Below, piece after piece: positions 4,755 to 39,732 of a DNA stretch of 64,000 nt. Position numbers and translations under genes: made by a program. The notes beneath the pieces are model-generated. The model searched no databases and was not told where the DNA came from. It worked only from the letters and a program-made list of their open reading frames with translations. Source of the DNA: a virus (lineage: Duplodnaviria; Caudoviricetes); the IMG/VR virus record IMGVR_UViG_3300011008_000049, positions 32,001 to 96,000 of that record; one strand, 5' to 3'. How positions within the stretch are numbered: the stretch's first letter is position 1; every line of letters begins with the position of its first letter.

Positions 4755-4831
4755 GCGGGCATGATGTTTAATGGTTAGCATCCCAGTTTTCCAAACTGGT
4801 TGTGAGGGTTCAAATCCCTTTGCCCGCTCCA
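4755..4831 (+). tRNA. tRNA-Gly(TCC)
   Basis: cloverleaf, ccagt-ttTCCaa-actgg, CCA. Confidence 0.93.
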
Positions 4832-4835
4832 ATAT

Positions 4836-4909
4836 TGGGATATGGTGTAATGGTAACACACAAGACTTTGACTCTTGCTTTGTAGGTTCGAGTCCTGCTA
4901 TCCCAGCCA
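4836..4909 (+). tRNA. tRNA-Gln(TTG)
   Basis: caaga-ctTTGac-tcttg, CCA. Confidence 0.93.
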
Positions 4910-4912
4910 TTT

Positions 4913-5003
4913 GGAGAGGTAATCCTAATTGGTAAGGAAGCAGTTTGCTAAACTGTTAGTAACCAGCAATGGCGTGTGAGTTCGAGTCTCGCCCTCTCCG
5001 CCA
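4913..5003 (+). tRNA. tRNA-Ser(GCT)
   Basis: gcagt-ttGCTaa-actgt, long variable arm, CCA. Confidence 0.93.
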
Positions 5004-5006
5004 TTT

Positions 5007-5083
5007 AGGAGAGTAGTTTAACGGTAGAACTCCGGTCTCCAAAACCGATGTAGATGAGGGTTCAAATCCTTCCTCTCCTGCCA
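5007..5083 (+). tRNA. tRNA-Trp(CCA)
   Basis: cggt-ctCCAaa-accg, CCA. Confidence 0.9.
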
Positions 5084-5088
5084 AATAT

Positions 5089-5164
5089 GAGCCAGTAATT
5101 CAGTTGGTAGAATATCGCACTTTTAATGCGAAGGTCATGGGTTCGAGTCCCATCTGGCTCACCA
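5089..5164 (+). tRNA. tRNA-Lys(TTT)
   Basis: tcgca-ctTTTaa-tgcga, CCA. Confidence 0.93.
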
Positions 5165-10746: not shown

Positions 10747-10831
10747 GCTGGCGTGGTGGAATTGGCAGACACGCAAGATTAAGGTTCTTGTTCCGTAAGG
10801 AGTGCAGGTTCAAGTCCTGTTGCCAGCACCA
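10747..10831 (+). tRNA. tRNA-Leu(AAG)
   Basis: caaga-ttAAGgt-tcttg, long variable arm, CCA. Confidence 0.88.
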
Positions 10832-10835
10832 TTAT

Positions 10836-10922
10836 GCGGGAGTGACGGAATTGGCAGACGTAGCGGACTTAAAATCCGCTGGTAGCAATACCGTGTGGGT
10901 TCAAGTCCCATCTCCCGCACCA
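10836..10922 (+). tRNA. tRNA-Leu(TAA)
   Basis: gcgga-ctTAAaa-tccgc. Confidence 0.93.
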
Positions 10923-10926
10923 ATAT

Positions 10927-11001
10927 ACTGCATTAGCTCAACGGTTAGAGCAATCGCCTTATAAGCGATAGACATTAGTTCGACTCTACTATGCAGTACC
11001 A
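10927..11001 (+). tRNA. tRNA-Ile(TAT)
   Basis: atcgc-ctTATaa-gcgat, CCA; one T-stem mismatch. Confidence 0.85.
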
Positions 11002-11083
11002 ACGGCGACTTTCTTAAAAGTTAGTTCTTTAAGCCGGAAAAATCAAAGTAAACTACGCTTGACATTCGGAGAGACGATAATAC

Positions 11084-11173
11084 GGTGAGGTGGCAGAGTC
11101 CGGCTTATTGCACCAGTCTTGAAAACTGGCGGCGGGAAACCGTCCCTGGGTTCAAATCCCAGCCTCACCGCCA
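11084..11173 (+). tRNA. tRNA-Ser(TGA)
   Basis: ccagt-ctTGAaa-actgg, long variable arm. Confidence 0.93.
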
Positions 11174-11319
11174 TAAGATTGCCGATGATACGAATATAGG
11201 CGGTGCAAATTGCTCATAAGTGTGAATCTCGCAAAGTCATCGTTAGCGACCTCCGTGGATGCTGCTCCTATGGCTGATGGCATCTATCGGCAATCGAAAT
11301 TATATTGCTGGAGGAAACA

Positions 11320-11589
11320 ATGTTTAGAAATGTTGTGGTTGGGAAACCTCTTGTGGATGTAAGAATGTTGTTATCGGAAGATGAGGAAGATTGGGAAAGA
11401 AATGAGAAAAAAGATACTCTTTTTACTGAAACAAGATTCCTTCCGGCAATATTAAAGGAAGCAGGTGTTGTTTCGTCAACCGGAGAAATAAGAAGAAACA
11501 AACCTGACCTTGTAATAAATTTGGATAAACCAGATTGTCTATGGGTTAAATGGGGCAAGAAATTTATTTACATAGTTGTCGGTGAATAA
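11320..11589 (+). CDS. small protein with S4-like RNA-binding motif
   Basis: LKEAGVVSSTGEIRRN resembles TyrRS C-terminal S4 motif; RBS GGAGG. Confidence 0.55.
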   Translation: MFRNVVVGKPLVDVRMLLSEDEEDWERNEKKDTLFTETRFLPAILKEAGVVSSTGEIRRNKPDLVINLDKPDCLWVKWGKKFIYIVVGE

Positions 11590-11592
11590 TAT

Positions 11593-11669
11593 GCGCCATT
11601 AGTTCAGATGGATAGAACAATGGACTTCTAATCCATAGGTCGAAGGTTCAAGTCCTTCATGGCGTGCCA
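11593..11669 (+). tRNA. tRNA-Arg(TCT)
   Basis: atgga-ctTCTaa-tccat. Confidence 0.93.
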
Positions 11670-11673
11670 ATAT

Positions 11674-11758
11674 GCTGGTATGACGGAATCGGCAGACGTG
11701 ACAGACTCAAAATCTGTTGCCGAGAGGCGTGTGAGTTCAAGTCTCACTACCAGTACCA
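11674..11758 (+). tRNA. tRNA-Leu(CAA)
   Basis: acaga-ctCAAaa-tctgt. Confidence 0.93.
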
Positions 11759-11759
11759 T

Positions 11760-11835
11760 TGCGGGATAGAGAAGCGGTCATCTCACGACCCTCATAAGGT
11801 CGGAATCGTGGGTTCGAGTCCCACTCCCGCAACCA
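11760..11835 (+). tRNA. tRNA-Met(CAT), initiator-like body
   Basis: cgacc-ctCATaa-ggtcg; lacks the GGG/CCC anticodon stem of fMet. Confidence 0.88.
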
Positions 11836-11838
11836 AAT

Positions 11839-11915
11839 CTGGATGTAGTTCAGTTTGGTAGAACGCTGCATTTGGGATGCAGAGGTCGCAGGTTCGAGTC
11901 CTGTCATCCAGACCA
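11839..11915 (+). tRNA. tRNA-Pro(TGG)
   Basis: ctgca-ttTGGga-tgcag. Confidence 0.93.
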
Positions 11916-20863: not shown

Positions 20864-21868
20864 ATGGAAAATAAAAGCGGTACTTCAAAACCAAAAGGAT
20901 ATGAACTTGTAAACTTTTGTGAATTTGATAAATACGCAGCTACAAGTTATTGCGCAATTCACGGAGTAGATGAGAGTTTTAATCTTGGAGACATTACAAA
21001 AGTAGACGAAACAAAAATATCACCGTTTACAATGATTTGCGGTGGTAGTCCATGTCAAGATTTTAGCGTAGCCGGAAGGCAAGCCGGAAGTAAATGGAGA
21101 TGTACGGATTGTGGTTGTGAATACAATCCATTAACCGTTCACTATTCTGTAAGGCATAAATGCCCTAACTGTGGTTGTGAATACAATCCATTAACCGTTC
21201 ACTATTCTGTAAGGCATAAATGCCCTAACTGTGGTAAAGAAAATCTTGACAAATCAAGAAGTTCATTATTGGTTGAATGGTTGAGGGTAATTAGAGCCAA
21301 TAAACCAAAATGGGGAATCTATGAGAATGTAAAGAACATTGTCGGAAAGCAATTCAGAAATACTTTTAATATGTTTATTGAGGAATTGCATGAGTACGGC
21401 TACAATACATATTTCAAAGTTCTTAATTCAAAAGATTTTGGTGTTCCTCAAAACAGAGAGCGTGTATATCTCATAATTATCTTAAAAGAATTAGACAATG
21501 GCAAGTTTTCATTTCCTACCGGATTTGAGAGCGATATTTGCCTAAAAGACGTTCTTGAAGATGAAGTTGATGAAAAATACTATGTTAATACACCAAAGGC
21601 AAAAGAATTAATTGATGACCTTATTCAAAGCGGCAAATTAGATAAAGATGTTTCTAATACCGTAAGAGCCGGGGGGGAGAGGAAGTATAGACCGACATCA
21701 ATGGGATATGGTTCAGGTATGATTAAGACTGGACTATTTTCTAAACAGTGCAAAGTTTTTGATAGAGAAATTGATGTCGCTAATACTTTACTTGCCAGAG
21801 ATTATAAAGGATTTGGAAATCAAAGTATGAATGGAGTTATAGAATGCAGCAAGAAATACGAATTGTAA
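20864..21868 (+). CDS. C5-cytosine methyltransferase, catalytic part (motifs II-VIII, no motif I), Zn-ribbon insert and TRD tail
   Basis: FCEFD, GGSPCQDFS, ENV, QNRERV; G7 at 21671. Confidence 0.88.
   Translation: MENKSGTSKPKGYELVNFCEFDKYAATSYCAIHGVDESFNLGDITKVDETKISPFTMICGGSPCQDFSVAGRQAGSKWRCTDCGCEYNPLTVHYSVRHKCPNCGCEYNPLTVHYSVRHKCPNCGKENLDKSRSSLLVEWLRVIRANKPKWGIYENVKNIVGKQFRNTFNMFIEELHEYGYNTYFKVLNSKDFGVPQNRERVYLIIILKELDNGKFSFPTGFESDICLKDVLEDEVDEKYYVNTPKAKELIDDLIQSGKLDKDVSNTVRAGGERKYRPTSMGYGSGMIKTGLFSKQCKVFDREIDVANTLLARDYKGFGNQSMNGVIECSKKYEL
21110..21235 (+). repeat. exact 60-bp tandem duplication
   Basis: two identical copies encoding CGCEYNPLTVHYSVRHKCPN. Confidence 0.95.
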
Positions 21869-22180
21869 ATGTTCTTGGTAGATTGATTCCCGAATCTGGC
21901 AAGATTCATCAAAATCAAGAAGTTTACTTAACATTCGGGGGGAGCATAATGTGTACTGTCAAAGCGACACATTACAAAGACCCACCAAAAGTAATGTATG
22001 TTCTGATGTGGTTAATAAAAATGAAGAAAAGTAGAGATATTATTAGACTAATACACCGAGGTTCGGGGGACAGCAAGGATGGATTTATTCAGTAAATGGA
22101 TTGATGTCAACAATTCCTGCTTCTGGCTATAAAGACCCGCCGAAAATTGTTGTAATAGACGAAAAGAGAAAATGTGATGA
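21844..22180 (+). pseudogene. TRD-like mini-gene(s), second module out of frame at G5 (22065)
   Basis: TVKATHYKDPPK in frame; STIPASGYKDPPK needs +1 G. Confidence 0.6.
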
Positions 22181-22920
22181 ACAAGATAATTCAGATAGGA
22201 AACATGAGAGATGATACCAAAAATTTCTCAAATCCGCAAACCGGCAGAGTGTATTCGACTGATGGAATCGCACCAACAATTAACACTTGTCAGGGGGAGG
22301 CAGAGAACCAAAGGTATTGGTCGAGGTGGTTAATATGAAAATTGTATGCGAAAGGCGAACCGATGAAGGACTCCGAACATTTAAGGATAATGTAGTAGGA
22401 ACAATCCGAACCATTGATTCGGGGGTGATAAGCGAGTGATTGAAAATAGTAAACATAGTTCTGGTTATCGAATTAGAAAACTTACACCAAAAGAATGTTG
22501 GAGATTGATGGGATTTTCTGATGATGATTATGAACGAGCAAGAAAGGCGTTAAACGAAAGGTTTTATAAAGGTAAGAACAAATCAAGTTCTCAATTATAT
22601 AAACAAGCTGGAAATTCAATAGTAACAGATGTCTTATATTACATATTTAAGGAACTATATTCCGCTATGCCGTATCTATTCGATGATTTGAAAGTTAGCA
22701 GCTATTTTTCCGGCATTGGTGCATTTGAAATTGCACTTGATAGGCTGTTCAATGATGATGTAGGCAATAAAGAATTAACCGGTTCATCCGGGGGAGAGAA
22801 ATTATTATCTATGATGACTACAACAGCAATATAAGAGCAGACCAAAATACAATAGGAACAATCACAACCAATATAGGCAGTAACAGTTTAAGGAACGCAT
22901 ATAAACTGATAGAGCCTTAA
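22177..22920 (+). pseudogene. C5-MTase C-terminal part (motifs IX-X, then motif I) with TRD-like modules; frameshifts at G5 22293, 22421, 22790
   Basis: IRKLTPKECWRLMGF, YKQAGNSI, then YFSGIGAFE; intact sub-ORF 22436-22834. Confidence 0.8.
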
Positions 22921-23146
22921 ATTATTTGGTTTATAGATAAGATAGAATAATACGCAAAAGGATAAATAAAATGAAAAATTGTAAATATGAGCAAGGCAAT
23001 TCAAGAAACAAATATATTCGATGTACTCTTGATAACTCTTTAAGAAATACAGAAAAGAGTTGCGGATATTTTTGTCCTAAATATAAGAAATCATTTTGGA
23101 AGAAGATTTCCGAATGGTTTAGAGGATATTAAAAGGAGTTTTACAA

Positions 23147-23673
23147 ATGGTAATTAACCGAGTATGGGCTATGCCTAATAGTAATACGTTTAGTATTCCT
23201 CCCATTGCTAAACTTGTGAATAGATACACGGCGCAGGGGGTAAAAGCAAAGTAATTGTAGACCCATTTGCTAATGGTTGCAAAATTGGGACGATTACAAA
23301 TGACCTTAATCCAAAATTTGATACTACATATCATTTAGATGCTCTTGACTTTTTGAAACTGCTTGATGATGATTCGGCAGATGTTGTTTTATATGACCCG
23401 CCATATTCTTTACGGCAAGTAAAAGAATGTTATGAAGGTGTCGGTGTAACTGTAACAGCAGAACATACAAAATCATCATGGAGAGCGAAACATCTTGATG
23501 AAATATCAAGAATCTTAAAACCAGGCGGAGTTTGTTTGTGCTTTGGATGGAACACAAATGGTGTAGGCAAGAAACGCGGTTTTGAGATGATTGAAGTTCT
23601 CATTGTTCCGCACGGTGGCAGTAAAAACGATACTCTCTGTACCGTGGAAGTCAAAAAGAGCAATGAAGAATAG
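23147..23673 (+). pseudogene. adenine-specific methyltransferase, frameshifted at G5 (23236-23240)
   Basis: WAMPN..TFSI, DPFA, DPPYS; +1 G restores frame. Confidence 0.8.
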
Positions 23674-23854
23674 GAAACCAATTTGTCTAAATAGTAAAGG
23701 CGGACGAAATGGTATTCCAGGATTACAACCATCATTGAAAGATAGGGTTTATAGTACAGATGGTGTTTCGTGCGCCATAACAACTTCTGAATTCTTTATG
23801 CCATGTTATTTGGTTAGAGATAAAGAAGTGAAAGGAAAGAACAATGAGAATTAA
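23663..23854 (+). CDS. stand-alone C5-MTase TRD-like peptide
   Basis: QPSLKDRVYSTDGVSCAITT resembles RVYSTDGIAPTINT of the 22177 module. Confidence 0.55.
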   Translation: MKNRKPICLNSKGGRNGIPGLQPSLKDRVYSTDGVSCAITTSEFFMPCYLVRDKEVKGKNNEN

Positions 23855-36820: not shown

Positions 36821-37927
36821 ATGGAAAGAGAACAAAATACAGAGTATATCTTATCGCTTTCATACGGCAAAGATAGTATTGCTTGTCTTGAAGCCATTAA
36901 ACAACTCGGTTATCCATTAGATAGGATTGTCCACGCAGAAGTATGGGCTACTGATACAATTCCGGCTGATTTACCGCCAATGGTAGAGTTTAAGTCTTAT
37001 GCAGATAAGATTATAAAAGAAAGATACGGAATTGAAGTAGAGCATATTTGCGCTGTTCGGGGGTAAGAAACTTACCTACTCCAAAGAATTCTACCGAGTT
37101 GGCTCAAAGGGAAGATTCGCAGGTTACATATACGGATTCCCTTGCACTGTCAAGCCGTGGTGTAATTCAAGACTCAAAGTTGATGCACTCACAAGAATTG
37201 GAAAAGGTAACATACGAGAAACTGTTTTATCACATTCCGAAGCGCAGGAAACCCGCAGGGGGAAGAAAACAATCCAGTTGGATTCCTCCGACACGGAGCA
37301 TATTGCAATGCAACATCAGCACTCAAAACAAATCCACTCGAACAACTCAATCCTCGGATTCCCAATTCCAAGAGGAACTTGGTGCAACAGCGACCTCAAA
37401 ATTGCTGCCCTACGGATTTCCAATCTCAATCGGCAGAGGGAATTGGTGTACTCAACTCAAACAGAGAGTTTTCAAAGAGCGCCATTGCACAAGGCGCGAA
37501 GAAAAATATTGTGCAGTATCTCGGCATAGCAGCCGATGAACCTGAAAGAATAAAAAGACATTCTGTTCCTGGAAAGATTTTGCCTCTTGTAGACATCGGA
37601 TGGGATGAAGCATATTGCAGAAAATGGTGTGAAGAAAATAATCTTCTTTCCCCTATTTATACCGATTCATTAAGAGGTGGATGTTGGTTTTGCCACAATC
37701 AAGGCGTTGACCAGTTAAGATTATTGAGAAAGAATTATCCGGATTTGTGGGAACTTTTGCTCAAATGGGATAGCGATTCCCCAACAACGTTCAAATCTGA
37801 TGGTCATACTGTTCATGATTATGAAAAACGGTTTAAGGCAGAAGATGATGGTTTGGTAAAACCAGGAGATAGAAAATTCAGATGGAAACAGGTTTTAGAA
37901 GAAGATGACATACAAGGAACGATATAG
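36821..37927 (+). pseudogene. PAPS-reductase/DndC-like protein, split at G-tracts with alternative-frame modules
   Basis: SYGKDS PP-loop; YLGIAADEPER, RGGCWFCH; G5 at 37059 and 37258. Confidence 0.8.
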
Positions 37928-38049: not shown

Positions 38050-38544
38050 ATGAAATTGAAAAAAGCAACAGATAGAAAAGCAATAACAAAACTATTAGCA
38101 GAACAATTAGAAAAACATATAAATCCTCATAATGATACGAGAATTTATACTGCAAAAGAAGTGACTTTCGATTATTCGACAGACCATCCTATTAGGGTTG
38201 ATTATATGGTGTTTAAGCCGGTTAATAATTCTGTTGGCGGCATTGAAAAAGGCGTTTTCTACTGTTATGAAATTAAGTCCTGCAAAGAAGATTTGTTGTC
38301 TGGTCATGGTTTGAATTTCATCGGAGATTATAACTATCTTGTTTTCAATAAAGGTATGTTCAAAGAATTGAAATCCTATGTTCCGTATGATGTAGGAGTA
38401 TATGAATTAACAGAATACGGATTGGATTGTGTAAAGAAAGCAAGATTAAAAACAAGAGAAAGAAGCGTTACAGAGATGCTTCTTATGATGTTTAGAAGCT
38501 CAAATAGAGATTTAATAAAACAAAAATTTGGAGGTAACAAATGA
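38050..38544 (+). CDS. PD-(D/E)XK nuclease (MmcB-like)
   Basis: EV...RVD...YEIKS. Confidence 0.65.
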   Translation: MKLKKATDRKAITKLLAEQLEKHINPHNDTRIYTAKEVTFDYSTDHPIRVDYMVFKPVNNSVGGIEKGVFYCYEIKSCKEDLLSGHGLNFIGDYNYLVFNKGMFKELKSYVPYDVGVYELTEYGLDCVKKARLKTRERSVTEMLLMMFRSSNRDLIKQKFGGNK

Positions 38545-39732
38545 GATTAACAAATAACTGGATTAACGGCGATTGCTTAAAGGAATTGAAGAAATTGCCG
38601 GATGAAAGTGTCCATCTCATTATTACATCTCCACCCTATCACAATTTGAGAGTTTATAGCAACGACCCATCAGACTTATCAAATTGTGAGACATATGAAG
38701 AATATTATTACTTACTTGGTCTTGTAATTGCCGAGTGCCAAAGAGTGCTTGTGCCAGGGGGGTAAGTTTGTAATCCAGTATGAGGATTATAATTACACAT
38801 TGGGTAGAGATGGTAGAAATGGACAGGAGAGTTTAACAGGAGATATTAACAAAATCTTTTCTGATAATGGTTTTTCGCTTTGGACGAAAGCATTTTGGAG
38901 AAAGTATTCCGCACAAAGAGCAATGTTGGCGCAGGGAAACCTTTATTACAGAAATATGAAAGCAAGAGACACTATCCTTGCCGCAAATGTAGGATTTGTT
39001 TATGTCTACAAGAAAGCCGGTGAACTTGAAGTAATTAAGGCATCTGATATTACTCTTGCTGAATGGGCTGATTGGGCGGATGGTATGTGGAATATTCCGA
39101 ACTCTGGAATTGGTCATACTACACCATTTGCAGAAGAACTTGTTAAGCGTTGCATTAAACTTTGGTCTTGTCCTGGTGATACTGTTTTAGACCCATTCGC
39201 AGGAGCAGGTACAGTTAATAAGGTAGCAATCGAAAATCATAGAAATGCAGTTGGTATCGAACTCAATAAAGAGTTCTATGACCTTGCAAATGAAAAGAGA
39301 TTTTCCGCATGGACTGATGCCGATTTGGAATGTGATGATTCTATTGAACAAATGAAAGAACGTTTTGCGGAGCAGTTGGCAATCGGTAAAGAACAGTCGG
39401 AAGCTGCAAAGGCTGAAAAGCAAGGAAGAAAGCCGAAAGAGAGGCAAAGAAAAATAATGATGGATGATATTCTTACAAGAAGCATGGTTGAATCAAAAGA
39501 AGAATGGCGAAAATGGTGTACTGAAATACCTGATTTACATTTTGATAGTGATTGGAATGTAAAAATTATTCCGCCATTTGCTGGTGCGCTTATTAGATTC
39601 ATTGTTTCTAAAAATAATAAACGAGTTTCGGTATATTTTGATGGCTATTCAAAACTCGGTTTTATGTATGATAGTAACGATAAACCAATTCCTTATTTTT
39701 TAAATGATATAAGGAAGGTTTTGGATGATTGA
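38541..39732 (+). pseudogene. N4/N6 DNA methyltransferase frameshifted at G6 (38757-38762), with fused C-terminal domain
   Basis: TSPPY upstream, DPFAGAGT downstream; -1 G restores frame. Confidence 0.82.

What the first reader, a model, noticed from the sequence alone, without database searches (positions are those of the whole stretch)
36821..37927. PAPS-reductase-like gene with four alternative GF...CN..LK-like modules spread over three reading frames, gated by G-tracts
Seen: the N-terminus (SYGKDS) stops right after G5 at 37059. G4/G7 would continue into YIYGFPCTVKPWCNSRLK; G6 enters a frame leading to EKVTYEKLFYHIPKR and a second G5 (37258). After that tract all three frames stay open for about 270 nt and each has a paralogous module: PVGFLRHGAYCNATSALK (this frame continues to the C-terminal YLGIAADEPER...CWFC), ILGFPIPRGTWCNSDLK and PYGFPISIGRGNWCTQLK. 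Triple-open frames in AT-rich DNA, each with a related motif, are hard to explain by chance. Inference: slippage selects among specificity loops of a DNA-modifying (DndC-like/PP-loop) enzyme. Two frames stop at 37529/37539, so they need another shift (possibly the T-run near 37469) or trans-complementation by a separate C-terminal chain.
Basis: partly seen in the sequence, partly recalled or inferred. Interest (0 to 1): 0.8.

Follow-up and report, generated by a model that had tools for sequence, protein, structure and literature searches.

The report
Repeat-set three-frame enzyme cassette switch
A gut-phage enzyme gene that looks broken is probably a switch: two short G-runs set the reading frame, each frame decodes a different copy of the enzyme's active-site segment, and a conserved slippery U-run with an RNA pseudoknot probably returns ribosomes to the frame of the rest of the protein.

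Summary
The N-terminal PP-loop part (36821-37063) stops just after G5 (37059-63). A second G5 lies at 37258-62. Four related GF..C..LK modules lie in three frames. 37209-37528 has no stop in any frame, far longer than any other such stretch in the window.

IMG/VR phages and gut Clostridia genomes show this is a conserved design, not decay:
- Multi-module homologues carry G6-G13, C8-C10 or (GA)5-17 tracts at the same two sites.
- Near-identical contigs differ almost only in tract length.
- Each segment tested (M2 was not) evolves under purifying selection in its own frame.

New here: every unique multi-module IMG/VR relative has an invariant U4 run phased to the C-terminal frame. Six nt downstream lies an H-type pseudoknot with compensatory changes in both stems. 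Single-module homologues lack it. I read it as a -1/-2 frameshift "collector".

The protein has a PAPS/APS-reductase-like fold and is related to lambda NinC. Its substrate is unknown. The window's copy is in the OFF state.

This scan reached the same reading before on other DNA (e1-2200420, e1-3643017). I found no published description. The nested two-tract, four-module form is what this window adds.

The parts
36821..37066 (+). N-terminal PP-loop part (81 aa, SYGKDS motif), frame F1, ending at TAA 37064-66 in the assembled (OFF) state
   Evidence: phrog_424 match. Synonymous fraction 0.78 in F1 against 0.04-0.09 in the other frames.
37059..37063 (+). Tract 1 (G5), the first frame selector: G4/G7 leads to unit A, G6 leads to unit B, G5 gives a stop
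   Evidence: G6 in L002, G5 in L003-7 and L011, G9 in L008/9. It is the only indel between L002 and L003, which differ by 2 mismatches in 1119 nt.
37065..37190 (+). Unit A in frame F2: helix motif TYSKEFY plus module M1 (GFPCTVKPWCNSRLK, 37134-78)
   Evidence: phrog_424 profile 235-263. Highest synonymous fraction in F2: 0.29 against 0.09-0.12.
37207..37263 (+). Start of unit B in frame F3 (VTYEKLFYHIPKRRKPAGG), overlapping the tail of unit A's frame
   Evidence: Synonymous fraction 0.78 in F3 against 0.08-0.13 in the other frames.
37258..37262 (+). Tract 2 (G5), the second frame selector, inside the loop between the FY helix and the GFP..WC..LK module
   Evidence: G6 in L002-4, G5 in L005-6, G9 in L008/9, (GA)14 in L007. 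It is the only difference between L003 and L005 (0 mismatches in 1118 nt).
37274..37327 (+). Module M2 (PVGFLRHGAYCNATSALK), frame F1, the C-terminal frame (frame 0); a divergent module type also seen in L011 and L057
37350..37400 (+). Module M3 (ILGFPIPRGTWCNSDLK), frame F2 (= frame +1 relative to the C-terminal part)
   Evidence: Synonymous fraction 0.52 in F2 against 0.00-0.11.
37408..37473 (+). Module M4 (PYGFPISIGRGNWCTQLKQRVF), frame F3 (= frame +2), directly before the U-run
   Evidence: Synonymous fraction 0.70 in F3 against 0.06-0.08.
37469..37472 (+). U4 run read as Phe in all three frames; its first base is the first base of a frame-0 codon; proposed slippery site
   Evidence: Invariant in 38/38 aligned sequences. 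In phase 0 in 35 of 37 unique IMG/VR loci; the other two are T5 runs that still hold the frame-0 TTT. Phase 0 in 16 of the 17 detected genome loci.
37479..37516 (+). H-type pseudoknot. S1: 37479-83 with 37493-97. S2: loop 37485-90 with 37511-16. A-rich 13-nt L3. It begins 6 nt after the U-run.
   Evidence: 97.3% of cells paired against 31-53% when slid. S1 third pair: UA17/CG13/GC4/AU3. S2 pair: CG30/AU4/UA2/UG1. 0 of 500 shuffles reach the score. S1 is in the MFE fold. Further stem variants appear in bacterial genomes.
37499..37927 (+). C-terminal part (YLGIAADEPER ... GGCWFCHNQ ...), frame F1, stop 37925-27; it contains no ATG
   Evidence: phrog_424 269-392; phrog_28782; synonymous fraction 0.93.

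Best explanation
This is one gene for a lambda-NinC-like PP-loop enzyme with a PAPS/APS-reductase-like fold. Its central active-site segment exists in several out-of-phase copies. That segment is a short helix, a loop, then GFP..WC..LK, which carries an invariant Cys.

Proposed mechanism:
1. Replication slippage at two simple repeats (G5 and G5 here; G8-13, C8-10 or (GA)n in relatives) changes tract length heritably and reversibly. This sets the reading frame.
2. Tract 1 chooses stop (OFF), unit A (M1) or unit B.
3. Tract 2 chooses which of M2, M3 or M4 is read in frame. The other copies are read out of frame as a disordered linker.
4. After the last module, ribosomes in frame +1 or +2 meet a U-run 6 nt before a pseudoknot. 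There tRNA-Phe slips back by 1 or 2 bases onto the 5'-most UUU. That puts the ribosome in the frame of the C-terminal half. Ribosomes already in that frame cannot slip further because the base before the run is not U.

The result would be up to six enzyme isoforms plus OFF from one gene, as bet-hedging over what the enzyme acts on.

Shown: the anatomy, tract polymorphism between samples, purifying selection on four segments (M2 untested) in their own frames, the conserved covarying RNA structure, and the fold.
Inferred: that frameshifting occurs, that isoforms differ in specificity, and that the substrate is nucleic acid.

The window's copy is in the OFF state.
For: Anatomy and 320-nt triple-open stretch.

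Family profile: phrog_424 puts module and C-terminal part about 6 residues apart, so about 295 nt here are extra.

Survey of 80 IMG/VR relatives:
- Single-module genes have an N-to-C span of 123-165 nt in one ORF.
- Multi-module genes (256-465 nt) almost all carry long SSRs at the same two sites.
- Each frame holds about one module.
- Three-module forms are found in all three states.

Near-identical contig pairs (0-12 mismatches per kb): every indel but one lies in an SSR. Examples are L003 vs L005 (0 mismatches, G6/G5) and L014/16/17 (0 mismatches, (AG)9/10/8).

Own-frame synonymous excess for N-terminal part, unit A, unit-B start, M3, M4 and C-terminal part.

U-run plus pseudoknot:
- Invariant T4, in phase 0 in 35 of 37 unique loci (the other two are T5 runs containing the frame-0 TTT), 6-nt spacer, two stems with compensatory changes.
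- The changes pair a nonsynonymous site with a synonymous site, which protein coding cannot explain.
- In an independent set of bacterial genomes, a strict scan for the phased U-run plus GC-rich hairpin (the S2 partner was only noted) found it in 17 of 27 multi-module loci and 0 of 48 single-module loci. New stem variants appeared.
- 12 of the 38 aligned sequences have G_GGU_UUU, a canonical -1 heptamer in frame +1.
- Lin et al. 2012 (PMC3458567) found -2 shifting on a U-run optimal at a spacer 1-2 nt shorter than for -1. That matches frame +2 (spacer 5) against frame +1 (spacer 6) here.

Structure:
- AlphaFold of a natural frame-0 three-module ORF gives a confident core and a disordered out-of-frame linker, pLDDT 25-31.
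- Natural proteins with two in-frame units exist.
- Fold: PAPS/APS reductases are the top hits, Z 10-12.
- hhalign to lambda NinC: 93.8% probability.
Against: - Heterogeneity within a population and the true tract lengths of this assembly are untested.
- The window's tracts are only G5, so switching should be slow, and the assembled state is OFF.
- OFF at tract 1 is over-represented: 8 of 9 window-type contigs and 12 of 18 two-module contigs. No two-module contig is in the direct frame-0 state. Simple random switching does not predict this.
- The window's heptamer (G_AGU_UUU) is not canonical, and P-site re-pairing is poor in many loci.
- A -2 shift in bacteria at such a site has not been shown.
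- The pseudoknot is small (5 + 6 bp), and the folding energy of the 91-nt window is not unusual (z = -0.7).
- The module region is modelled with low confidence.
- No Pfam model matches, and the substrate is unknown.
Confidence: 0.62

Rival explanations
1. Frame choice is made mainly at the RNA level. RNA polymerase slips on the G or GA tracts, or ribosomes shift there. One genotype then makes a mixture of isoforms at once, and the 'OFF' DNA state would be the most versatile one. DNA length changes would only tune the mixture.
For: The excess of 'OFF' genotypes and the absence of frame-0 two-module genotypes would make sense if the n-1 and n+1 transcripts of an OFF template give both units. Long homopolymers and repeats are known slippage sites for RNA polymerases (Atkins et al. 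2016 review, PMC5009743, listed; not read).
Against: G5 tracts are too short for known transcriptional slippage. DNA-level length differences between otherwise identical contigs are real. Three-module forms occur in all three DNA states. The neighbouring methyltransferase with the same G-run/TAAG context is intact in all 38 relatives, so that context is not a conserved recoding site.
Confidence: 0.15
2. Split enzyme. In frames +1 and +2 the gene yields an N-terminal fragment ending soon after the module. The C-terminal half is made separately or supplied otherwise. The U-run/pseudoknot has another role, such as pausing.
For: F2 and F3 end 10-14 codons into the C-terminal region here. PHROGs holds a family (phrog_28782) that matches the C-terminal part alone.
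Against: The C-terminal part has no ATG. The nearby GTG/ATT codons vary synonymously among relatives, so there is no conserved start. The positions of the frame +1 and +2 stops are not conserved. phrog_28782 may simply collect gene-caller fragments of such genes. The phased U-run at canonical spacing from a pseudoknot is the signature of frameshifting.
Confidence: 0.08
3. Plain ON/OFF contingency gene, or a decaying gene. The extra modules are remnants of tandem duplication (or silent donor cassettes for recombination) and are never translated in their own frames.
For: Tandem in-frame two-unit homologues exist, showing duplication of the unit. Single-module homologues with an SSR (L061, (AG)6) look like simple ON/OFF genes. 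Most assembled states are OFF.
Against: M1, M3, M4 and the unit-B start each show a synonymous excess only in their own frame. The 320-nt stop-free stretch in all frames and the one-module-per-frame layout recur across many lineages and repeat types. The U-run/pseudoknot is present in multi-module genes and absent from single-module ones.
Confidence: 0.06
4. Homopolymer sequencing or assembly errors in this metagenome assembly create the apparent frame breaks.
For: The neighbouring methyltransferase has one G too many in a G5 run that is intact in all relatives. Other first-stage notes report G-run breaks elsewhere in this genome. Reads could not be checked.
Against: G5 plus TAA at tract 1 is reproduced in six further contigs of four lineages (L003-4, L005-6, L007, L011). 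The multi-frame layout does not depend on any single tract length. (AG)n unit differences between 0-mismatch contigs are not a typical error type.
Confidence: 0.04

Closest known systems
Helicobacter pylori fucosyltransferase genes (futC/futA/futB): poly-C tract plus a dnaX-like -1 frameshift cassette (Wang et al. 1999, recalled from my own knowledge; not found in the paper library)
   Same: A hypermutable homopolymer sets the frame of an enzyme gene. A downstream ribosomal frameshift signal is proposed to bring part of the ribosomes back to the productive frame.
   Different: In fut genes the outcome is ON, OFF or reduced expression of a single enzyme. Here each frame carries its own copy of the active-site segment. 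The signal is a U-run plus pseudoknot that would have to collect two frames. The gene is in a phage.
Phase-variable restriction-modification genes (phasevarions; SSRs in Type I hsdS and Type III mod genes; Cj0031 Type IIG)
   Same: SSR length changes in nucleic-acid-modifying enzymes switch activity, and in some hsdS genes specificity, as bet-hedging (PMC7383803 and PMC4889913, listed).
   Different: Those systems switch ON/OFF or truncate a specificity subunit. None is known to me that lays alternative segments in three overlapping frames and then resets the frame.
Phage contingency loci: T2/T4 agt and others (Gomez et al. 2025, bioRxiv 10.1101/2025.10.21.683753) and Campylobacter phage polyG tracts (Sorensen et al. 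2021, cited in PMC12823448)
   Same: Homopolymer tracts in phage genes, including a DNA-modification gene (agt), give reversible frameshifts and bet-hedging.
   Different: Those are ON/OFF switches of single products. There is no cassette choice and no frameshift reset.
Bacteriophage lambda NinC and the PAPS/APS reductase fold (DndC/SspD/BrxP are distant PP-loop relatives)
   Same: Homology to NinC over the module and C-terminal motifs (hhalign 93.8%). The fold is closest to PAPS/APS reductases, Z 10-12. The PP-loop-like motif SYGKDS and a WC...CWFC cysteine set are present.
   Different: NinC and most relatives have one module and no tracts. NinC's function is unknown. No DndD/SspC/BrxC-type partner gene lies nearby.
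Viral -1/-2 programmed frameshift signals on U-rich heptamers (HIV U6A constructs; arterivirus G_GUU_UUU, the latter recalled from my own knowledge)
   Same: U-run, 5-6 nt spacer, downstream stem or pseudoknot. The -2 shift is favoured by a spacer 1-2 nt shorter (PMC3458567).
   Different: Those signals split one frame into two products. Here the signal would merge two frames into one.

Membership tests
PP-loop ATPase / PAPS-reductase-like (adenine nucleotide alpha-hydrolase) fold | Rossmann-like alpha/beta core superposable on solved PAPS/APS reductases | tested here: met
   VIA-align: 7rge Z 12.2 (163 aligned, rmsd 3.4), 4bwv 10.7, 2goy 10.3, 7lhr 10.0. For the single-module model: 7rge 11.9, 2oq2 11.1, 2goy 10.9. 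Other PP-loop enzymes follow at Z 9-10, so the sub-family assignment is soft.
PP-loop ATPase / PAPS-reductase-like (adenine nucleotide alpha-hydrolase) fold | N-terminal PP-loop motif (SGGxDS type) after strand 1 | tested here: met
   SLSYGKDS is invariant across the family alignment. It is a variant (Y for G) of the consensus.
Pfam PAPS_reduct (PF01507) as a sequence family | Match to the Pfam model at its gathering score | tested here: not met
   No Pfam hit at E<=1 for the window's pieces or for four full-length relatives. NCBIfam gives only sub-threshold hits. Only phrog_424 'PAPS reductase' matches. I therefore file it as fold-level/NinC-like, not as a PF01507 member.
Lambda NinC-like phage proteins | Profile-level homology to lambda NinC, including the module and the C-terminal CxxC motif | tested here: met
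   hhalign of alignment A4 against lambda NinC: probability 93.8%, E 1.7e-7, 101 columns. These cover YGxP..C..LK, IGIxADEPxR and GxCxFC.
SSR contingency locus (phase variation by slipped-strand mispairing) | Repeat tract inside the ORF whose length sets the frame | tested here: met
   G5 at 37059 and 37258. Relatives have G6-13, C8-10 or (GA)5-17 at the homologous sites.
SSR contingency locus (phase variation by slipped-strand mispairing) | Tract-length polymorphism between otherwise identical genomes | tested here: met
   Pairs with 0-12 mismatches per kb differ by indels confined to the tracts, with one exception (a 3-nt indel in L078).
SSR contingency locus (phase variation by slipped-strand mispairing) | High-frequency reversible switching within one population | not testable with these tools
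Programmed -1 (and -2) ribosomal frameshift signal | Slippery sequence at the frame junction | tested here: inconclusive
   The U4+ run is invariant and phased. 12 of the 38 aligned sequences have canonical G_GGU_UUU. The window has G_AGU_UUU, where only the A-site tRNA-Phe can re-pair.
Programmed -1 (and -2) ribosomal frameshift signal | Stimulatory RNA structure 5-9 nt downstream, supported by covariation | tested here: met
   6-nt spacer. H-type pseudoknot with compensatory changes in both stems. 97.3% of cells paired against 31-53% in slid controls. 0 of 500 shuffles reach the score. Replicated in bacterial genomes.
Programmed -1 (and -2) ribosomal frameshift signal | A trans-frame protein product | not testable with these tools
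   Needs a reporter assay, proteomics or Ribo-seq.
DNA phosphorothioation enzymes (DndC / SspD / BrxP) | Adjacent DndD/SspC/BrxC-type NTPase partner, named essential in PMC12914056 | tested here: not met
   The neighbours are a CCA-adding enzyme, an N6/N4 methyltransferase, an SNF2 helicase, NT5C, an MT-A70 methyltransferase and an RNA ligase. No Dnd/Ssp/Brx partner was recognised.

The most novel reading that the evidence does not exclude
One phage gene encodes up to six versions of a NinC-like nucleic-acid-modifying enzyme plus an OFF state. Two nested hypermutable tracts pick the reading frame across a 320-nt stretch open in all three frames. A U-run/pseudoknot then acts as a frame 'collector', merging frames +1 and +2 into the C-terminal frame by -1 and -2 ribosomal frameshifting. 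The isoforms would differ in target specificity. This would be a heritable, reversible specificity switch of a kind not described in the literature I could search. It is widespread in prophages of gut Clostridia.
Probability: 0.45. Interest if true: 0.9.

Novelty: new variant of a known kind. Interest (0 to 1): 0.8.

Why it matters
If right, this is a compact way to diversify an enzyme: alternative active-site segments stacked in three reading frames, chosen by a hypermutable repeat and rejoined by recoding.

- It combines two textbook mechanisms (contingency loci and programmed frameshifting) in a way that neither field has described.
- It would be a rare case of a frameshift signal that merges frames rather than splitting them, possibly with -2 shifting in bacteria.
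- It explains why gene callers report these common gut-phage genes as fragments.
- It gives a handle on the unknown function of the lambda NinC family, because locked isoforms should leave different modification marks.
- Together with the G-run-gated methyltransferase loci in the same phage, it suggests that this phage lineage bet-hedges its nucleic-acid modification repertoire against host defences.

Tried and rejected
- **Intron or known RNA family in the 430-nt middle:** Rfam found nothing relevant.
- **Conserved +1 frameshift at GGG-UAA-G, shared with the methyltransferase at 38757:** rejected. All 38 relatives of that methyltransferase are intact, and the closest has G5 where the window has G6. 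The other GGGTAA sites, 24386 and 57668, are ordinary gene junctions.
- **Quadruplet-decoding or unusual tRNA:** the 13 tRNAs look ordinary. tRNA-Gly(UCC) has a normal 7-nt anticodon loop.
- **Separate start for the C-terminal part:** there is no ATG, and the candidate GTG/ATT codons are not conserved.
- **A-run 37502-06 as the collector:** not conserved among relatives.
- **Pfam and NCBIfam:** no family-level hit.
- **PDB by sequence:** only chance-level hits.
- **Folding frameshifted isoforms:** not attempted, because the fold tool does not accept -1 joined sequences. Natural ORFs were folded instead.
- **Paralogues in the same genome:** none.
- **Literature:** searches for this combination (PAPS reductase with phase variation; phase variation with frameshifting pseudoknot) found no description.
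Full report
**1. What is in the sequence**

The window is bases 32001-96000 of a 152.6-kb IMG/VR virus record. CheckV rates it 99% complete. GC content is 36%, and the genes lie almost all on the + strand.

Frame F1 is the frame of position 37040. The layout is as follows:
- An ORF starts at 36821 with the PP-loop-like motif SLSYGKDS. It ends at TAA 37064-66, directly after G5 (37059-63).
- F2 continues with a complete "unit A" (37065-37190). It reads ..TYSKEFY.., a loop, then GFPCTVKPWCNSRLK.
- F3 carries the start of a second unit (VTYEKLFYHIPKRRKPAGG, 37207-63), which runs into a second G5 (37258-62).
- Three further modules follow: M2 (37274-327, F1), M3 (37350-400, F2) and M4 (37408-73, F3).
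- The C-terminal part (YLGIAADEPER...GGCWFCHNQ..., 37499-37924) is in F1.
- F2 stops at 37527 and F3 at 37537.
- 37209-37528 has no stop in any + frame (320 nt). The next longest such stretch in 64 kb is 124 nt, and shuffles reach at most 131 nt.

PHROG family 424 ("PAPS reductase") aligns the N-terminal part, unit A and the C-terminal part. It places module and C-terminal part only about 6 profile positions apart, so roughly 295 nt here are extra.

**2. Relatives show a design, not decay**

A scan of IMG/VR with the C-terminal part found 237 relatives, of which 80 were fetched.

Two classes appear:
- Some relatives are simple. One module, one ORF, 123-165 nt between the N-terminal and C-terminal parts.
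- Most have 256-465 nt there, with two to four modules spread over the frames. Nearly all of these carry long simple repeats at the two sites where the window has its G5 runs: G6-G10, C8-C10 or (GA/AG)5-17.
- Site 1 lies just after ..EVEHICAxR. Site 2 lies in the loop between the FY helix and GFP.
- The repeat type changes between lineages, for example G5, G9 or (GA)14 at site 2, but the position does not.

Contig pairs from different samples that differ by only 0-12 mismatches per kb have indels only in these tracts, with one exception:
- L003 vs L005: 0 mismatches, G6 vs G5.
- L002 vs L003: 2 mismatches, G6 vs G5.
- L014/L016/L017: 0 mismatches, (AG)9/10/8.
- L046/L051: G9 vs G7; L052 has an interrupted G8-A-GG tract (+2 nt).

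Three-module genes are found in all three frame states.

Codon differences among the window-type lineages are mostly synonymous only in the frame claimed for each segment:

| Segment | Own frame | Synonymous fraction, own frame | Other frames |
|---|---|---|---|
| N-terminal part | F1 | 0.78 | 0.04-0.09 |
| Unit A | F2 | 0.29 | 0.09-0.12 |
| Unit-B start | F3 | 0.78 | 0.08-0.13 |
| M3 | F2 | 0.52 | 0.00-0.11 |
| M4 | F3 | 0.70 | 0.06-0.08 |
| C-terminal start | F1 | 0.93 | 0.00-0.05 |

So M1, M3, M4 and the unit-B start are each selected as protein in their own frames. M2 could not be tested this way because its alignment is gapped.

An independent scan of bacterial genomes found the gene in prophages of gut Clostridia (Oscillospiraceae, Ruminococcus, Faecalibacterium, Christensenellaceae and others). 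The same two classes appear, with tracts up to G13.

**3. How the frames get back to the C-terminal part**

Only one frame (frame 0) is continuous with the C-terminal part, yet modules in frames +1 and +2 are conserved. The C-terminal part has no ATG, and nearby GTG/ATT codons vary synonymously. A separate start is therefore unlikely.

All 37 unique multi-module IMG/VR loci and the window share the same element just after the last module:
- **U-run.** A T4 or longer run that is invariant. In 35 of 37 loci its first T is the first base of a frame-0 codon; the other two are T5 runs that still hold the frame-0 TTT. The run reads Phe in all three frames.
- **Stem 1.** Six nt downstream lies a GC-rich 5-bp stem (window 37479-83 with 37493-97). 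Its third pair occurs as U-A (17), C-G (13), G-C (4) and A-U (3). This links the first base of a Ser/Pro/Ala/Thr codon to the wobble base of a Gly codon.
- **Stem 2.** The loop (37485-90) pairs with 37511-16 and also shows compensatory changes: C-G 30, A-U 4, U-A 2, U-G 1.
- **Overall support.** 97.3% of cells pair, against 31-53% when the partner is slid. No shuffle of 500 reaches the covariation score.
- **Shape.** This is an H-type pseudoknot with an A-rich third loop.
- **Distribution.** Single-module homologues lack it. In the bacterial-genome set, a strict scan for the phased U-run plus hairpin found it in 17 of 27 multi-module loci and 0 of 48 single-module loci. Further stem variants appeared. 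Several of the ten multi-module loci without it also lack a long repeat and keep the N- and C-terminal parts in one frame; they may be in-frame tandem forms, which I did not check.

A U-run, a 6-nt spacer and a pseudoknot are the signature of -1 programmed frameshifting. Twelve of the 38 aligned sequences have the canonical heptamer G_GGU_UUU in frame +1.

The geometry fits a "collector":
- With Phe-tRNA in the A site, frame +1 ribosomes sit 6 nt from the knot and need a -1 shift.
- Frame +2 ribosomes sit 5 nt away and need a -2 shift.
- Both end on the 5'-most UUU, which is frame 0.
- Frame-0 ribosomes cannot slip further because the preceding base is not U.
- Lin et al. 2012 found that -2 shifting on a U-run is optimal with a spacer 1-2 nt shorter than for -1, and explained this by mRNA tension (PMC3458567).

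This step is inferred. No product was observed.

**4. What the protein is**

- Pfam and NCBIfam do not recognise it.
- AlphaFold models were made of a natural single-module homologue (pLDDT 82.5) and of a natural frame-0 three-module ORF.
- Both models are closest to PAPS/APS reductases (Z 10-12). Other PP-loop enzymes follow at Z 9-10.
- Profile comparison links the family to lambda NinC: 93.8% probability, covering the module, the IGIxADEPxR strand and the CxFC motif.
- In the three-module model the out-of-frame read of the other two modules (residues 133-181) is disordered, pLDDT 25-31, while the core is confident.
- From the DSSP output of the single-module model, both tract sites and the collector site map to loops. 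This mapping is my own reading.
- The module carries an invariant Cys (WC). Together with the invariant CWFC and two further Cys, it resembles the cysteine set of Fe-S APS reductases and thiolases. This is a lead only, because I could not measure distances.
- Natural proteins with two in-frame units exist (P0075, P0098, P0110; phage nd4). Extra units in one chain are therefore tolerated, and tandem duplication is the likely origin.
- The neighbours are nucleic-acid enzymes: a CCA-adding enzyme, two methyltransferases, an SNF2 helicase and an RNA ligase. No Dnd/Ssp/Brx partner is present.
- The substrate, DNA or tRNA, is unknown.

**5. States of the window's copy**

Tract 1:
- G5, as assembled, gives a stop after 81 aa (OFF).
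- G4 or G7 leads to unit A (M1).
- G6 or G3 leads to a linker and then unit B.

Tract 2 then puts M2 (frame 0, direct), M3 (frame +1) or M4 (frame +2) in frame.

That makes six ON products plus OFF.

With G5 tracts, switching should be slower than in relatives with G9 or (GA)n. Even so, G5/G6 differences between near-identical contigs show that it happens.

**6. Unexplained**

- OFF at site 1 is the assembled state in 8 of 9 window-type contigs and 12 of 18 two-module contigs. No two-module contig is in the direct frame-0 state.
- This may mean that expression is costly. It may instead mean that transcript-level slippage from an "OFF" template supplies both units, which is the main rival reading.
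- Reads could not be examined.

**7. Known, or new?**

What is already known:
- SSR contingency loci in restriction-modification genes.
- Contingency loci in phages: T2 agt (bioRxiv 10.1101/2025.10.21.683753) and Campylobacter phage polyG tracts (cited in PMC12823448).
- The H. pylori fut genes, which combine a poly-C tract with a -1 frameshift cassette (from my own memory).

What I found no paper describing:
- Alternative active-site segments stacked in three frames.
- A frameshift signal that merges frames.

Earlier follow-ups of this scan reached the same reading on other genomes (e1-2200420, e1-3643017). These are AI notes and not independent proof. I saw them only.

This window adds the nested two-tract, four-module form with short tracts. 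It also adds quantitative covariation and selection tests.

**Verdict**

A real feature and a new variant of known kinds. Interest is high. The frameshift step and the functional meaning remain to be shown.

Noticed in passing
window 38541-39732 (G6 at 38757-38762): The N6/N4 DNA methyltransferase next door is split by one extra G in a G-run (..VPGG*, then KFVIQ.. in +1). All 38 IMG/VR relatives are intact. The closest has G5 and most have no run at all. This is a window-specific slip or assembly error, not a conserved recoding site.
   Followed up: yes
window 20864-23854: A C5-methyltransferase locus has seven G5-G7 runs (21671, 21937, 22065, 22293, 22421, 22790, 23236). Several TRD-like motifs (..YKDPPK, TINTCQGG..) are spread over different frames. 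This may be a second frame-gated module system in the same phage, as other first-stage notes also say. There is also a perfect 60-nt tandem duplication at about 21112-21231 that repeats a Cys-rich 20-aa segment in frame.
   Followed up: partly
window 23149-23670 (G5 at 23236): A small amino-methyltransferase (DPPY motif) is broken at a G5 run. One more G would join ..NRYTAQG to GKSKVIVDPFANG...
   Followed up: no
L120 (Phage nd4, OR777945.1) 949-1917: The homologue in this complete isolate genome has two units in the same frame. It is annotated as two hypothetical proteins because a TGA stands at the invariant Trp of the GGCWFC motif. This is either a nonsense mutation or a hint of TGA=Trp decoding in that phage.
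   Followed up: no
L002-L081: Assembled states are biased towards OFF at repeat site 1: 8 of 9 window-type contigs and 12 of 18 two-module contigs. No two-module contig is in the direct frame-0 state. Three-module genes with a mid-gene G-tract occur in all three states.
   Followed up: partly
L063:2479-3420: A two-module relative lacks the U-run/pseudoknot. Instead it has a second (AG)6 repeat immediately before the C-terminal part. This is possibly an alternative, DNA-level way to reset the frame.
   Followed up: no
window 4755-5164 and 10747-11915: Thirteen tRNA genes lie in two clusters. tRNA-Gly(UCC) scores lowest in Rfam but has a normal anticodon loop.
   Followed up: partly
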